From Naegleria gruberi (lineage: Eukaryota), in assembly GCA_000004985.1 (NCBI GenBank), contig GG738854.1: a stretch of 64,000 nucleotides of DNA; one strand, written 5' to 3'. The position numbers and the translations under genes are program-made. Numbering within the stretch: position 1 is the stretch's first letter; every line of letters starts with the position of its first letter. The notes beneath the pieces are model-generated. The model was not told the DNA's origin. It made no database searches and worked only from the letters and a program-made list of their open reading frames with translations. Shown one piece after another: positions 43,879-59,128 of the stretch.

Positions 43879-46309
43879 ATGAGTCAAGGAGGAAAGACAC
43901 CATCTTTGGGTGGAACCAACAAGTTGCTCATTCCTAGTTATATTCAAAGAAAGGGACAAATGGGAAAGAGTGATGTTGATGATAAATTGGAAAAAATCAT
44001 CCATGCTATTGATCAAATCTATCAAGAAAATCAATCCCAATTATCTTTCCAAGTTCTTTATACGTAAGTTGTTATTGTTTCTATAGAAAAAGGAGATGAT
44101 TTACCTTGATTCGTGTTATTGTTAATTATTCCATATTTTGTTGATTTGATGGCCTTTTCTCCACTTTCCATCATTTTAATACAACACACAATATGATCAA
44201 CAACAAAAACATGATGATCTACACAACAATAATGATAGATCGGGCTACCAAATCGTTCTTCACAAAAACGGAGACTCATTATATGATGCTGTCAAGAACA
44301 AGCTCAGCGAATACATTCAAGGTGTTAGAGAAAAGACTATGGAATTCACTGATGATGGATTCTTGAAGGAACTTTTAAAACAATGGGAAAAGCACAGAAC
44401 ATCCGTAAGCATGGTCAGAGATATTCTCATGTATATGGATCGTAACTATGTTAAACAATTTAAAAAGACACCAGTTTATGAACTTGGTATCAAACTTTTT
44501 GGTACTGAAGTTTTCCACAAATCTACTTTGGAAAGAATTCAAAGACTTATCATGGATATTATCCTCAAGGACAGATGTGGTGAAGTTGTTGCCGATCGTT
44601 TCTTAATGAAGAGTCTTACACAAATGATGATTGAAATTTCCAAGAAGGATATCTATGAAACTCACTTTGAAAAGAAGCTTTTAGATGAAACTAGACAATT
44701 CTATACCAAGGAATCCAATGAATATTTCGAATCTTCTACTGCTACTGATTATCTTAAGAAGGTTACTCTTCGTTTGAAGGAAGAAAGAGAAAGAGTTGAC
44801 AGATGTATGGACCCTGATACTAAACCAAAAATTGAAGCTGTTCTCAAGAATGTAATGATTGATAAGTATAAGCATAGAATTATTGAAAAGGAAGGATCGG
44901 GATGTATTGCCATGCTTCAAACTTGGAAGGTTGATGATTTACGTCTTGTATTCGATGTCTTGTCACTTGTTGAAGGTGCTTTGGATCCATGTGTTGATTT
45001 GGTTGAAAACTTTTGTAGAAGTGAAGGTTATCAAATTGTTAAAGATAAGAATAAGGAAGAAAATCCAGTCGATTTTATTGCTGACTTGATTGTTTTGAAA
45101 GAAAAGTATGAAGGTTTGCTTGATCGTGCCTTCTCTGTCAAGAAGGGTAAACAATCTGCCAGAGATTCTAAATTCCAAGCTTGTGTTAAGAAAGCTTTTG
45201 ATGATACTATTAATGCCAATGAAAGATTCCCTGAATTCTTGTCACTCTATGTTGACAGCAAGTTGAAGAAGGGTAAGACCCAAGTTAGTGAATCTGAATT
45301 TGATGTTCTCTTTGAACAAGTTATTACTCTCTTTAGACATTTGCGTGAAAAGGATATTTTCGAAAAGTATTACAAGACTCACTTGGCTAAGAGATTGCTC
45401 AATCAACGTTCACAATCTGATGATGCTGAAAAGGCCTTTATCGGTAAATTGAAACAAGAATTTGGTTATCAATTTACTGCCAAACTTGAAGGCATGTTTA
45501 ACGATATGAGACTTTCCAGAGAAACTAATGAATCTTTCAAGTCTTATATTGATAGATTTCCAAACAAGAAACCAGCTATTGATTTGTCTGTTCAAGTTTT
45601 GACAACTGGTTACTGGCCTGTTACTCAATCTATTGCAATTACAGTTCCAGAAACTATTGACAAGTCTGCAAATATTTTCAAGGAATTCTATATTGATTCT
45701 CACAATGGTAGAAAGCTTACATGGCAATACAATATGGGTAGTGCTGATATCAAGGCTAATGGTTATGATAAGAAGTATGAAATTAACGTTTCCACCTTCC
45801 AAATGGTTGTCTTGTTGTTGTTCAATGAAAAGGAAACTATTTCATATGGTGATATTTTGCAAACTACCAAGATTCCAATGAATGAATTGAAGAAGAACTT
45901 GCTTGCTTTGACTGTCAAGACCGCTACTCACCAAAAGTTATTGACTTCTAGCACTGATAAGACTTTGACTAAGGAATCTGTTTTTACTGTAAATAATGAA
46001 TTTGAAAGTAAGCTTATCAAGGTTAAGATTGCACCAATCGTTTTGAAGGAAACTAAGGAACAACAAGAAGAAACTAAACAAAAGATTGATGAAGAAAGAA
46101 AATGGCTTTTGGATGCCACAATTGTTCGTATCATGAAGGCAAGAAAGACCTTGGAACACAGAGACTTGGTCATTGAAGTTACTAAACAATTGCAACAAAG
46201 ATTTATGCCATCTCCTGACATGATTAAGAAGCGTATTGAAAGTTTGATTGAAAGAGAATATTTAGAACGTTCACAAGAGAGTCGTTCCAAGTACAACTAT
46301 GTAGCATAA
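43879..46309 (+). CDS. CUL3: Cullin (CUL3-like); exons 43879-44063 and 44239-46309, intron 44064-44238 (175 bp), ~751 aa
   Basis: The N-terminus LSFQVLYTSGYQIVLHKNGDSLYDAV matches human CUL3 [26 protein letters not shown], and MVRDILMYMDRNYV matches MIRDILMYMDRVYV. The C-terminal cullin-homology and neddylation region reads ...IVRIMKARKTLEHRDLV... Confidence 0.75.
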
Positions 46310-49290: not shown

Positions 49291-50290
49291 TTTCTTATTG
49301 TTGTTGTTGTTGTGATATCTTGAAGATTAGGATAATATTATTGGAAACTGAAGGATAACATTATGATAACAAGCACAATGCAATAGGGTTGCGTTATTTG
49401 TGCGATAAACAATGCAATTGCATTGCGCAGAAACACGAAACAATTTAAACATTATCAGTCTGAATACGAAACCTACCTATTCTTTGCCGGCAATTTATTC
49501 GAAACAAAATAATCTCTCAAGTGTTGTCTGTTTTTTTTCTGTGTGTATTTTGCATCTCTCTGAGATGTTGATATCTGTTCAAGTGAACATTTCTATGAAA
49601 ATACAAAAAGAAGCACTTGCCATTTTGGAGGCGGAAGAAAGCTGACGAAAGGAATTTTTTAGCTAGTCTGCATTTTAATTGTATAATTCTGTCTAAATGT
49701 TGAGTTGCTTGTCTTTGGGTTGTCTTTCTGTGTTGGTTTCTGATTTGATGTGCGAAATGTAGAGATATTTCGAATAGAGTAAGGTTGAGGGTTGCATCTA
49801 TTGAATTCGCGATGTTGCTTTTGAGATTTCTACATAATAGTATGGAATGGCCACATTGTAAATATGTAGAAATTTACAAAATTCACATTGAAGGAAGTTG
49901 TGACATTGAAGGAAGTGGGAGAAACGAAACTCCATTGCATTTTTGTTTAGTTTTGTTGAATCTTGGGTGAAAGGTTTGGTGTTTGTTTCCATTCCTTGCG
50001 CATCATAAAATGCAATATAGCAATTAGGAAGTGAAAGTTCAGATTTAATAACCGATTGAGCAGAATAATAGATACTGTCGTTTGGCAGTTCATATTTCTG
50101 AACAGAATGCTAGCCGTTCGATAGATGGAAAGTTGTGTTTCAATTTGAATGAGAGGCAAAGTGGAAAGGAATCTCATGGAAAGTAATGGAAGAACAACAA
50201 ATCATGGTTTTGGCAACTTGCTTTCAAACTGAAACACACTCGGCACCTCTTTTAACTGTTGTCTTAACTATGTTGTTTGAAATATTGGAT

Positions 50291-50380
50291 GGTGCGATGG
50301 TCGAGTGGTCTAAGACGACACGTTAAGGTATTCTAATACCGTGTTCCGCAAGGGCGTGGGTTCAAATCCCACTCGCATCA
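50291..50380 (+). tRNA. tRNA-Leu(AAG): tRNA-Leu (anticodon AAG), class II, with a 10-nt intron (50329-50338) 3' of position 37
   Basis: Folded by hand. The acceptor stem ggtgcga pairs with tcgcatc (one G-U) and the discriminator is A. The D-arm is gtc/gac with an 11-nt loop gagtggtctaa. The anticodon stem acacg pairs with cgtgt, and the loop is ttAAGg plus c once tattctaata is removed. A long variable arm and a T-arm gtggg-ttcaaat-cccac complete the fold. No encoded CCA. Confidence 0.8.
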
Positions 50381-50382
50381 AA

Positions 50383-57429: not shown

Positions 57430-57764
57430 GTTTTCTTCTCAGATATTTAAAAGATTTTCTTTCAATAGATTTTTTCCAACCTTTCCTTATTTATAACCTA
57501 ATACTCAACAAGTGAAGATGAAAAAGTATGTCTTATATCAGACATCTTATTATTTTCCTTTCAAAATACCTTTGCATTCGAAGAAAAATTATATGTTTAT
57601 TCAATGAGTTCCTGAGATATTAAAAGCACTTGAAATTTTGGTCATCATCTGTTTATTACAAAGTGATTTATTTCAATTGCTTGTTTATTGTCTCTATGGA
57701 ATTCCTTGATTGCAGTCCAATTGCGATTTCAAGTTTAGTTTGTGAATTAGTTTTGTAATATAAT

Positions 57765-58160
57765 TTATTGGAAAGATGGATTGGTGGCAAAATAATGTTT
57801 GAGAATTGTCTCTTGTTTGGATTTAATTTGATAGGAAACGAAAAAACATCTTGGATGTGAAGGAAGAGTTTCGTCTTTACAAGGTTTAGTTTCTTTTGGT
57901 TTCTCCTCTCTTCTTTTCTTAATTTTCTTAATTTTATGAACGTGTTTAGGATGTTTCCTATGATGATGATGCTTTTTATGAGTAGATTTATGGTACTGAT
58001 GAATTATTTCTTCTTGGCCATTCGAATGATTGCATTCGAAACTTTCCAAAGATGGATGTTTCGTTTTCCTCGAGTGTTTCCTTCTCTCTGAGCAATACAC
58101 TGTTTGTGCAAACTGTATAATCAACACTATTGCTATCAACAATACAATAAATCGTTTCAT
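57765..58160 (-). CDS. Secreted His/Lys-rich small protein (signal peptide MKRFIVLLIAIVLIIQFAQTVYC)
   Basis: The ORF has a strong N-terminal signal-peptide-like segment and HKKHHHHRKHPKHVHKIKKIKKRREEKPK. The start is placed at the ATG at 58160; the ORF tool extends to 58214. Confidence 0.4.
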   Translation of the reverse strand: MKRFIVLLIAIVLIIQFAQTVYCSERRKHSRKTKHPSLESFECNHSNGQEEIIHQYHKSTHKKHHHHRKHPKHVHKIKKIKKRREEKPKETKPCKDETLPSHPRCFFVSYQIKSKQETILKHYFATNPSFQ

Positions 58161-58366
58161 TTTCTTTTTGAAATTACAAAACATTAATTTTTCATCTTTC
58201 ATTCCACTTTTCAAACATTTCCATTTTTAGCTTTTTCTCAATACTACTCCAACATGTTCTCATAGTATTTTTTTATCAAGATTAGTTTAGTTTCCCATAA
58301 AATCTTCACTTCTTTCAACATCAAATTCCCAACAATTTTTTCACTTTCTAAAATCTCTAATTTTAT

Positions 58367-58726
58367 TTAAATAACACCCTTATACTTCATATCAGAAGCA
58401 CAAATGTGAGTAATCAACCATTGCTTAATAAATTGCATCTCAGCATCTCCAACACTAGTCAAGGCCAAAGCATCCTGAACAAATTTATCATGAGTTTCCT
58501 TATGAGAGGCAGATTCAGACCAACCAGCCTTAGCAAACAAATCTTCTTCAGTCTTGAAGTGGAAAACAACGTAATCTAATAATTCCTTCAATGTTGTGCC
58601 GCAACTTCTCTTGGCATCTAAAGCGTTGATTAAAGTGAAGAGTTTCTTGTGTTGTTCGTTTAATTCAGCATTGCCAATATCGAGAGTGGTTGACCATTCG
58701 TATGGGGTTGGGATTGGATAAGACAT
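58367..58726 (-). CDS. Single-domain hemerythrin (bacteriohemerythrin-like), 119 aa, intronless
   Basis: All seven di-iron ligand positions are present in canonical spacing: H25 (EQHKKLF), H54/E58 (HFKTEEDLF), H73/H77 (HKETHDKF), and H106/D111 (ITHICASD). W11 and the helix-breaking pattern are also conserved. Confidence 0.65.
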   Translation of the reverse strand: MSYPIPTPYEWSTTLDIGNAELNEQHKKLFTLINALDAKRSCGTTLKELLDYVVFHFKTEEDLFAKAGWSESASHKETHDKFVQDALALTSVGDAEMQFIKQWLITHICASDMKYKGVI

Positions 58727-59128
58727 TTTTGTTGTTAGTTGTATTGATTGTTTTTTTTGTTTGGTTGATTGGCAGGTGACAGTTGTTGGGGTTTTAAAGG
58801 TTTTTTGTGATCAGAAACTTTAGAAGGTGTGGTTGCAATTTGTCTTTTTTTGGAAATTTTTAGGTTTTTGTCGGATTGTAATGATGTAATTTTACAGAGT
58901 TGACTTGTCGTTGTAGGGAATGTGGCGTGTTAAATGTGACATTATTCGAAACAACGCCAGTTTTTCAAATATGGCGTTCAAAAATTATTTCTCCAAATGT
59001 ACATCCAATCAAAACTCAACAATTACAATTATTCGAATGAAAAATTGTAGTCAAAGATTATAATACAACATTTTAAAGTTTGTTTTTTCCACATGTTGTT
59101 ACAACTGTTTATTCTTCCACAACTAAAT

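What the first reader, a model, noticed from the sequence alone, without database searches (positions are those of the whole stretch)
58367..58726. Complete single-domain hemerythrin with all di-iron ligands in a eukaryotic nuclear context
The 119-aa ORF keeps H25, H54, E58, H73, H77, H106 and D111 in the spacing of O2-binding (bacterio)hemerythrins. Such stand-alone hemerythrins act as O2/NO/iron sensors or O2 carriers and are sporadic in eukaryotes.
Basis: partly seen in the sequence, partly recalled or inferred. Interest (0 to 1): 0.5.

Follow-up and report, generated by a model that had tools for sequence, protein, structure and literature searches.

The report
Known Naegleria gruberi hemerythrin gene
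The ORF is a real, complete, intron-free hemerythrin gene, but it is the already annotated and experimentally studied hemerythrin of the amoeba Naegleria gruberi, so it is a correct call, not a discovery.

Summary
Window 58367..58726 (minus strand) encodes a complete 119-aa, single-domain hemerythrin. All seven di-iron ligands are present, at H26, H56, E60, H75, H79, H107 and D112 in ORF numbering. Pfam PF01814 and the NCBIfam hemerythrin models match. The AlphaFold2 model (pLDDT 94.4) superposes on myohemerythrin 2MHR at TM 0.93 and 1.2 Å. dN/dS against a 95%-identical relative is 0.057. Neighbours are eukaryotic (cullin, F-box, RGS, BTB, Sec13/WD40, TRK transporter).

The protein is residue-for-residue identical to N. 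gruberi "myohemerythrin" NAEGRDRAFT_44819 (D2V6E6, EFC47558.1). Neighbour accessions place the window on the 665-kb NEG-M scaffold. That locus is listed in a 2016 hemerythrin survey, and a 2008 survey counts five N. gruberi hemerythrins. XP_002680302.1, which is this gene by my accession mapping, was detected by proteomics. Papers I read cite work showing in-vitro O2 interaction and strong iron regulation of N. gruberi hemerythrin. The N. fowleri homologues (Nfa1, Nf-hemerythrin) bind O2 and NO.

Verdict: observation confirmed, interpretation supported, novelty nil. The physiological role is still unresolved: O2/NO buffer, iron pool, or phagocytosis factor.

The parts
58367..58726 (-). Complete single-exon CDS (119 codons plus TAA) of N. 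gruberi hemerythrin NAEGRDRAFT_44819 / EFC47558.1 / D2V6E6
   Evidence: ORF. Exact-sequence match to the N. gruberi entries. Neighbour accessions. Pfam and NCBIfam. Structure.
58649..58651 (-). Codon of H26 (myohemerythrin H25), ligand of the five-coordinate, O2-binding iron
   Evidence: Invariant in alignments A1 and A2.
58559..58561 (-). Codon of H56 (myohemerythrin H54), second ligand of the O2-binding iron
   Evidence: Invariant.
58547..58549 (-). Codon of E60 (myohemerythrin E58), bridging carboxylate
   Evidence: Invariant.
58502..58504 (-). Codon of H75 (myohemerythrin H73), ligand of the six-coordinate iron
   Evidence: Invariant in A1 and at least 90% conserved in A2.
58490..58492 (-). 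Codon of H79 (myohemerythrin H77), ligand of the six-coordinate iron
   Evidence: Invariant.
58406..58408 (-). Codon of H107 (myohemerythrin H106), ligand of the six-coordinate iron
   Evidence: Invariant.
58391..58393 (-). Codon of D112 (myohemerythrin D111), bridging carboxylate
   Evidence: Invariant.
58727..58772 (-). A/C-rich stretch of about 45 nt directly 5' of the ATG, a putative 5' leader. It is the only flanking sequence still alignable with the 95%-identical relative L004.
   Evidence: Weak: two sequences only, with no transcript data available here.

Best explanation
This is gene NAEGRDRAFT_44819 (EFC47558.1 = XP_002680302.1 by my mapping, UniProt D2V6E6) of Naegleria gruberi NEG-M. 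It is one of three sequence-identical copies, within a family of five single-domain hemerythrins.

It encodes a 13.5-kDa, untargeted and therefore cytosolic myohemerythrin-type four-helix bundle. From established hemerythrin chemistry, one iron is held by H75, H79 and H107 and the other by H26 and H56. E60, D112 and a hydroxo/oxo group bridge the two irons. O2 binds end-on to the five-coordinate iron in a hydrophobic pocket (F57, W103, L104 = myohemerythrin F55, W102, L103). Two electrons and the bridge proton pass to the O2, giving a diferric hydroperoxide, and the reaction is reversible. The reduced site can also capture NO.

Shown here: the identity of the gene, the ligands, the predicted fold and purifying selection. 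Taken from the literature: expression, O2 interaction in vitro, monomeric state, strong down-regulation on iron starvation, and up-regulation under copper stress.

Inferred: the cell uses it as an abundant cytosolic O2/NO/oxidant buffer whose level follows iron supply. I rate identity and chemistry at about 0.95, and this physiological role at about 0.5.
For: - Exact match to the N. gruberi 'myohemerythrin' entries.
- Neighbours are EFC47555, EFC47560, EFC47431 and EFC47433-47435, all on the 665,159-bp scaffold.
- PF01814 is above its gathering score. TIGR00058 aligns end to end (1-115/115, 121.8 bits) and NF033749 is above its cutoff.
- The best solved relative is myohemerythrin 2MHR/1A7D, E=9e-16.
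- The seven ligands and the pocket residues map one-to-one onto myohemerythrin.
- The AF2 model has pLDDT 94.4 and four helices. Foldseek gives TM 0.93 and rmsd 1.2 Å to 2MHR.
- dN/dS is 0.057.
- There is no extra domain and no N-terminal extension.
- Literature: XP_002680302.1 'Hemerythrin' was quantified in the N. gruberi proteome and rose 2.0-fold under copper limitation (PMC9035749).
- An antibody was raised against N. gruberi hemerythrin. The protein falls dramatically on iron deficiency in both species (PMC7326272; PMC7578549).
- N. gruberi hemerythrin interacts with O2 in vitro and is monomeric. This is Malych 2022 as cited in PMC9540462 and PMC11964265.
- Recombinant N. fowleri hemerythrin shows oxy-Hr bands at 330/380/500 nm and consumes about 3 NO per protein (PMC11964265).
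Against: - No experiment could be run here. Metal occupancy and ligand binding of this protein rest on papers I could only read second-hand, because Malych 2022 and Mach 2018 are not in the library.
- Proteomics cannot tell the three identical copies apart, so expression of this particular locus is not proven.
- The authors who study the protein state that its function is still unclear. They favour an iron-pool or iron-buffer role at least as much as O2 handling.
- TIGR00058 falls just below its trusted cutoff (121.8 against 131.85 bits).
Confidence: 0.85

Rival explanations
1. Same protein and same di-iron site, but its main cellular job is to act as a cytosolic iron pool or buffer. It would sequester iron when iron is plentiful, or when copper releases it from Fe-S clusters, and be sacrificed when iron is scarce. 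O2 binding would be incidental.
For: - Hemerythrin is among the most strongly iron-regulated proteins in N. fowleri: -7045-fold at protein level, and also regulated at mRNA level.
- It is abundant under iron-rich conditions.
- Naegleria lacks inducible iron uptake, and the authors explicitly propose a cytosolic iron pool (PMC7326272).
- It is up-regulated under copper overload, and iron buffering is proposed there too (PMC7578549).
- Three identical copies plus one 99%-identical copy fit selection for high dosage.
Against: - Two Fe per 13.5-kDa protein is a very poor storage ratio.
- The O2 pocket residues F57, W103 and L104 are conserved along with the ligands, which argues for selection on ligand binding and not only on metal binding.
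- Down-regulation of a non-essential iron protein on starvation is equally expected from simple iron sparing.
Confidence: 0.3
2. It works like Nfa1 of N. fowleri, as a pseudopod or food-cup associated factor needed for phagocytosis and contact-dependent feeding.
For: - Nfa1 is a 360-bp, 13.1-kDa hemerythrin homologue with the same ligand set.
- Knock-down and antibody studies link Nfa1 to cytotoxicity (PMC11614482; PMC2556348).
- Decreased hemerythrin expression correlates with decreased phagocytosis (PMC7326272).
- The gene here has the same size and architecture.
Against: - N. gruberi is non-pathogenic.
- This protein is only 59% identical to the N. lovaniensis homologue P0010, and I could not compare it with Nfa1 itself.
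- No mechanism links a di-iron O2 site to food-cup formation.
- There is no signal peptide or membrane anchor.
Confidence: 0.1
3. It is an O2, NO or iron sensor that transmits a signal, as the hemerythrin domains of DcrH, Bhr-DGC or FBXL5 do.
For: It has the same ligand set as DcrH-Hr, which is a weaker PDB match (E=6e-10; TM 0.76-0.79). An F-box gene and a cullin gene lie 11-14 kb away, but that is only a coincidence of neighbourhood.
Against: - It is single-domain, 119 aa aligned end to end with 118-aa myohemerythrin, with stops upstream and no output domain.
- The reported abundance is atypical of a sensor.
- The F-box ORF has no hemerythrin domain.
Confidence: 0.05
4. It is a bacterial contaminant, a recent horizontal transfer, or a chance or decaying ORF.
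For: Hemerythrins are far more common in bacteria. NF033749 (bacteriohemerythrin) also passes its cutoff.
Against: - It is embedded between eukaryotic genes on one contig.
- Its GC and GC3 are close to its neighbours'.
- It is closer to metazoan myohemerythrin than to bacterial hemerythrins in sequence and structure, and it lacks the bacterial loop insertions.
- Homologues exist in N. lovaniensis and in many other assemblies.
- dN/dS is 0.057.
Confidence: 0.01

Closest known systems
Naegleria gruberi hemerythrin / 'myohemerythrin' NAEGRDRAFT_44819 (D2V6E6; EFC47558.1, by my mapping XP_002680302.1; identical copies EFC37887.1 and EFC38044.1)
   Same: 100% identical over all 119 residues. The flanking genes also match this scaffold's entries. 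It is the same gene.
   Different: Nothing.
Nfa1 and Nf-hemerythrin (A0A6A5BXL4) of Naegleria fowleri
   Same: Same length class (360-bp ORF, about 13 kDa), the same seven ligands, and single-domain and monomeric. O2 and NO binding has been demonstrated for Nf-hemerythrin.
   Different: They are orthologues or paralogues in another species. The N. lovaniensis relative is only 59% identical. The virulence and food-cup roles are described only for N. fowleri. I made no direct comparison with the Nfa1 sequence.
Myohemerythrin of Themiste zostericola (PDB 2MHR, 1A7D)
   Same: The two proteins align end to end, including the N-terminal IPxPYxW arm. All ligands and pocket residues F55, W102 and L103 are conserved. 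TM 0.93, rmsd 1.2 Å; the protein is monomeric.
   Different: Identity is only 32-34%. It comes from a protist, not animal muscle, and it is regulated by iron and copper. TIGR00058 is just under its cutoff.
Bacteriohemerythrin of Methylococcus capsulatus (PDB 4XPX) and DcrH-Hr of Desulfovibrio vulgaris (2AVK)
   Same: Same fold and di-iron ligand set. The NF033749 model passes.
   Different: The bacterial proteins carry longer loops (about 130 aa) and lack the N-terminal arm, and they score lower (TM 0.76-0.85). DcrH-Hr is a domain of a chemoreceptor, whereas this protein stands alone.

Membership tests
Hemerythrin/HHE cation-binding superfamily (Pfam PF01814) | Profile match above Pfam's gathering score | tested here: met
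   37.1 bits against a cutoff of 25.3, E=5e-9, covering residues 20-116.
O2-binding hemerythrins | Seven di-iron ligands in the pattern H...HxxxE...HxxxH...HxxxxD | tested here: met
   H26, H56/E60, H75/H79 and H107/D112 align one-to-one with myohemerythrin H25, H54/E58, H73/H77 and H106/D111. All are invariant in A1.
O2-binding hemerythrins | Up-down four-helix bundle enclosing the metal site | tested here: met
   The AF2 model has pLDDT 94.4 and helices 20-38, 43-67, 72-87 and 94-115. TM is 0.93 and rmsd 1.2 Å to 2MHR. This is a prediction, not a solved structure.
O2-binding hemerythrins | Hydrophobic O2 pocket (myohemerythrin F55, W102, L103) | tested here: met
   F57 and W103 are invariant and L104 is at least 90% conserved in A1. 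F57 and W103 are also invariant in A2.
O2-binding hemerythrins | Di-iron occupancy and reversible O2 binding of the protein itself | not testable with these tools
   Reported for N. gruberi hemerythrin by Malych 2022, as cited in PMC9540462 and PMC11964265. The primary paper is not held.
Animal-type hemerythrin subfamily (NCBIfam TIGR00058) | Score at or above the curated cutoff of 131.85 bits | tested here: not met
   121.8 bits, E=2e-35, with a full-length alignment (1-115/115). It is closely related but just below the trusted cutoff.
Bacteriohemerythrin (NCBIfam NF033749) | Score at or above the curated cutoff of 84 bits | tested here: met
   93.1 bits. It lacks the loop insertions seen in the longer homologue P0027 (135 aa; origin not established) and, with gaps, in 4XPX.
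Hemerythrin-domain sensors (DcrH, Bhr-DGC, FBXL5 type) | Hemerythrin domain fused to a signalling or output domain | tested here: not met
   Pfam finds only one domain, the protein is 119 aa, and there are in-frame stops upstream.
Naegleria gruberi hemerythrin gene family (five single-domain loci) | Sequence identity with an annotated N. gruberi locus and matching genomic neighbours | tested here: met
   Exact match. Six neighbouring proteins match entries on the same 665-kb scaffold: five exactly, and the cullin ORF through its 90% cluster. The locus tag is listed in PMC4919030.

The most novel reading that the evidence does not exclude
The evidence does not exclude that the three identical copies, plus one copy differing by a single residue, are a recent dosage amplification of a protein whose real job is iron buffering, not O2 carriage. 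It also does not exclude that the hemerythrin gene forms a small metal-handling unit with the apparently unannotated, signal-peptide-bearing His/Lys-rich ORF directly downstream (57765..58160, minus strand). That ORF travels with the hemerythrin 3' end in a second sequence (L005) and has a distant homologue.
Probability: 0.1. Interest if true: 0.35.

Novelty: already known. Interest (0 to 1): 0.08.

Why it matters
As a finding it matters little. The gene has been annotated since the N. gruberi genome release. A 2008 phylogenomic survey counts five N. gruberi hemerythrins, a 2013 survey relates them to the animal respiratory hemerythrins, and a 2016 survey lists this locus by tag. The protein has also been detected and characterised.

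The family itself is of real biological interest. It is the protist lineage closest to the animal respiratory hemerythrins, and it includes the N. fowleri antigen Nfa1 and an NO-binding candidate virulence factor. Its physiological role is still open: O2/NO buffer, iron pool or phagocytosis factor. This window adds nothing new to that question beyond confirming an intact, strongly constrained copy.

Tried and rejected
- **Exact-protein contig look-ups.** For the window protein and its identical or near-identical N. gruberi entries these returned nothing. I could therefore not compare the three identical loci, or decide whether they are true paralogues or haplotigs.
- **Primary papers.** The two primary papers on N. 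gruberi hemerythrin (Malych 2022, Mach 2018) are not in the library, so I used papers that cite them.
- **Synteny.** The two N. lovaniensis hemerythrin loci (L002, L003) have different neighbours: B-box/SPRY, F-box-like and kinase genes.
- **Shared promoter motif.** I searched the upstream regions of the window, L004, L001, L002 and L003 for shared 8-mers. Only generic A/C-rich strings such as AACAAAAA turned up. Flanks diverge quickly even against the 95%-identical relative, apart from about 45 nt before the ATG.
- **Second copy in the window.** tblastn found none.
- **Bacterial contamination or chance ORF.** Considered and rejected.
- **Sensor architecture.** Considered and rejected, because there is no second domain.
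- **Neighbouring ORFs.** Exact look-ups of the His-rich ORF (three start variants) and of ATG-trimmed DUF4419 and TrkH ORFs found no identical entry.

Full report
**1. The observation**

Window 58367..58726 holds, on the minus strand, an ATG-to-TAA ORF of 119 codons. In-frame stops lie 27 and 30 codons upstream of the ATG. The product is MSYPIPTPYEWSTTLDIGNAELNEQHKKLF...KYKGVI, 13.5 kDa, pI 5.4.

Positions 25/54/58/73/77/106/111 are Q, V, K, A, E, T and S. The ligands are at H26, H56, E60, H75, H79, H107 and D112. An alignment shows that these correspond exactly to H25, H54, E58, H73, H77, H106 and D111 of Themiste myohemerythrin. The protein has just five histidines, all of them ligands.

An ORF of this length is not expected by chance in this AT-rich sequence: shuffles give 0.25 per window, against 40 observed.

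**2. What it is**

- *Profile matches.* Pfam PF01814 is above its gathering score (37.1 against 25.3 bits). NCBIfam TIGR00058 (hemerythrin) aligns over its whole length at 121.8 bits, just under its 131.85 cutoff. The bacteriohemerythrin and hemerythrin-domain models pass their cutoffs.
- *Solved relatives.* The best are myohemerythrin 2MHR/1A7D (E=9e-16), then M. capsulatus bacteriohemerythrin, the sipunculan hemerythrins and DcrH-Hr.
- *Conservation.* In a 10-sequence alignment all seven ligands are invariant, as are the pocket residues F57 and W103; L104 is at least 90% conserved. In a 29-sequence alignment six ligands are invariant and H75 is at least 90% conserved.
- *Structure.* AlphaFold2 gives a confident four-helix bundle: pLDDT 94.4, helices 20-38, 43-67, 72-87 and 94-115. 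It superposes on 2MHR at TM 0.93 and rmsd 1.2 Å over 118 columns. The bacterial proteins follow at TM 0.76-0.85.
- *Selection.* A 95%-identical relative on a short contig (L004) differs mostly at synonymous sites: Sd 26, Nd 8, dN/dS 0.057. Its flanks are barely alignable except for about 45 nt of A/C-rich leader.

**3. Whose gene it is**

The exact sequence is in the protein collection as N. gruberi "myohemerythrin", under D2V6E6, NAEGRDRAFT_44819, EFC37887.1, EFC38044.1, EFC47558.1 and XP_002670631.1, on three contigs.

Neighbouring ORFs of the window match N. gruberi entries on the 665,159-bp scaffold. Five match exactly, and the cullin ORF matches through its 90% cluster:
- RGS protein, EFC47555/D2V6E2
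- cullin, EFC47431/D2V6E0
- EFC47433/D2V6E5
- EFC47560/D2V6E8
- EFC47434/D2V6E9
- Sec13, EFC47435/D2V6F0

The window is therefore from N. gruberi NEG-M, and the hemerythrin here is EFC47558.1 = D2V6E6. The EFC-to-XP offset (2,632,744) holds for three independent pairs. EFC47558.1 is therefore XP_002680302.1; this mapping is an inference.

Other neighbours are F-box, L-PSP, BTB, NHL, TrkH-type transporter and DUF4419 proteins. A 90-nt tRNA gene is also present. The gene's GC and GC3 (0.38/0.37) are close to its neighbours'. The nuclear eukaryotic context is solid, and contamination can be dismissed.

**4. What is already known**

- Bailly et al. 2008 reported five hemerythrins in N. gruberi and placed the heterolobosean sequences basal to the metazoan respiratory hemerythrins (PMC2556348).
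- Martín-Durán et al. 2013 agree (PMC3730353).
- Alvarez-Carreño et al. 2016 list NAEGRDRAFT_44819 by name, with _36233, _83311, _83016 and _81770. They found O2-binding hemerythrins in only 4 of 135 eukaryotic genomes (PMC4919030).
- XP_002680302.1 "Hemerythrin" was quantified in the N. gruberi proteome, 2.0-fold up under copper limitation (PMC9035749).
- An antibody against N. gruberi hemerythrin exists. The protein is abundant and collapses on iron starvation in N. fowleri and, per Mach 2018, in N. gruberi (PMC7326272; PMC7578549).
- N. gruberi hemerythrin interacts with O2 in vitro and is monomeric. This is Malych 2022, as cited in PMC9540462 and PMC11964265.
- In N. fowleri the homologue Nfa1 (360 bp, 13.1 kDa) is a long-studied antigen (PMC11614482). 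A paralogue binds O2 and about 3 NO per protein (PMC11964265).
- The Naegleria pangenome paper notes multiple hemerythrin genes per strain (PMC9928731).

**5. How it most likely works**

*Shown here.* The gene is intact and strongly constrained. It encodes a single domain with no targeting extension, and it carries the complete di-iron ligand set and O2 pocket in a myohemerythrin fold.

*From established hemerythrin chemistry.* H75, H79 and H107 hold the six-coordinate iron, and H26 and H56 hold the five-coordinate iron. E60, D112 and a hydroxo group bridge them. O2 adds end-on to the five-coordinate iron and is reduced to a bound hydroperoxide, reversibly.

*Inferred.* The cell uses an abundant cytosolic pool of this protein to buffer O2, NO or oxidants, and the amount is tied to iron supply.

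*Rivals.* The main rival is that it serves chiefly as an iron pool or buffer, which is the hypothesis favoured by the group that studies it. Against this, two Fe per 13.5 kDa is poor storage, and the O2 pocket is conserved. A role like that of Nfa1 in food cups is possible but lacks a mechanism. A sensor role is unlikely without an output domain.

**6. Comparison and novelty**

The protein works like, and is a member of, the O2-binding hemerythrin family. Within that family it is closest to the animal myohemerythrin type, although it narrowly misses the TIGR00058 cutoff. It is not merely similar to a known protein: it is a known, named, published gene. Novelty is therefore "already known" and interest is low.

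**7. Side observations**

Directly downstream on the same strand lies an ORF (57765..58160) with a signal-like N-terminus and a His/Lys-rich core. It has no Pfam hit, and no identical protein exists in the collection. It does have a 96%-identical homologue, P0049, and a 32%-identical one, P0050, that shares a C-terminal ...HPxCFF...Y...K...L..YF motif.

The P0049 contig (L005) also carries the identical hemerythrin 3' end. Its only gap inside the ORF is a 3-nt in-frame deletion. L005 is thus a second copy or allele of the hemerythrin plus His-rich pair. This linkage is absent from the 95%-identical relative L004.

Noticed in passing
window 57765..58160 (-): There is an ORF 206 bp downstream of the hemerythrin stop, on the same strand. 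It is 131 aa from the ATG at 58160, with a signal-like N-terminus (MKRFIVLLIAIVLIIQFAQTVYC) followed by a His/Lys-rich stretch (HKKHHHHRKHPKHVHKIKKIKKRREEK). It has no Pfam hit, and no identical protein exists in the 15-billion collection, so it appears to be unannotated in N. gruberi. It does have a 96%-identical homologue (P0049) and a 32%-identical homologue (P0050, E=1.7e-7) with a conserved C-terminal HPxCFF motif. It could be a secreted metal-binding peptide.
   Followed up: partly
L005:1-1146 (ENA ERZ929261 contig) vs window 57600..58480: A second sequence carries the identical hemerythrin 3' end plus the His-rich ORF at about 96% identity. The only gap inside the ORF is an in-frame 3-nt deletion, while both flanking non-coding stretches carry other indels. 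It is either one of the other identical hemerythrin loci, an allele, or a closely related strain. So the hemerythrin and the His-rich ORF were duplicated or inherited together.
   Followed up: partly
N. gruberi genome (outside the window); The 119-aa hemerythrin occurs as three residue-identical entries on three contigs (EFC37887, EFC38044, EFC47558). There is also one copy differing by a single residue, A95G (EFC37982), and a 78%-identical paralogue (EFC46050). I could not determine whether the identical ones are real paralogues or assembly haplotigs.
   Followed up: partly
window 50290..50381 (+): A 90-nt tRNA gene (Rfam tRNA, 47.9 bits). ARAGORN could not assign its anticodon. It is probably a nuclear tRNA with an intron or a long variable arm.
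   Followed up: partly
window 44339..46309 (+): The cullin ORF is 656 aa, but the annotated N. gruberi cullin in the same 90% cluster (EFC47431.1) is 751 aa. At least one upstream exon or intron must therefore exist, which shows that some genes in this window are spliced while the hemerythrin is not.
   Followed up: no
protein P0026 (Logan assembly, 146 aa): This is a called protein whose C-terminal third is 85% identical to the N-terminal third of the hemerythrin and then diverges after ...LDAKRTC. It may be an intron-containing homologue, a pseudogene or a mis-assembly in a related amoeba.
   Followed up: no
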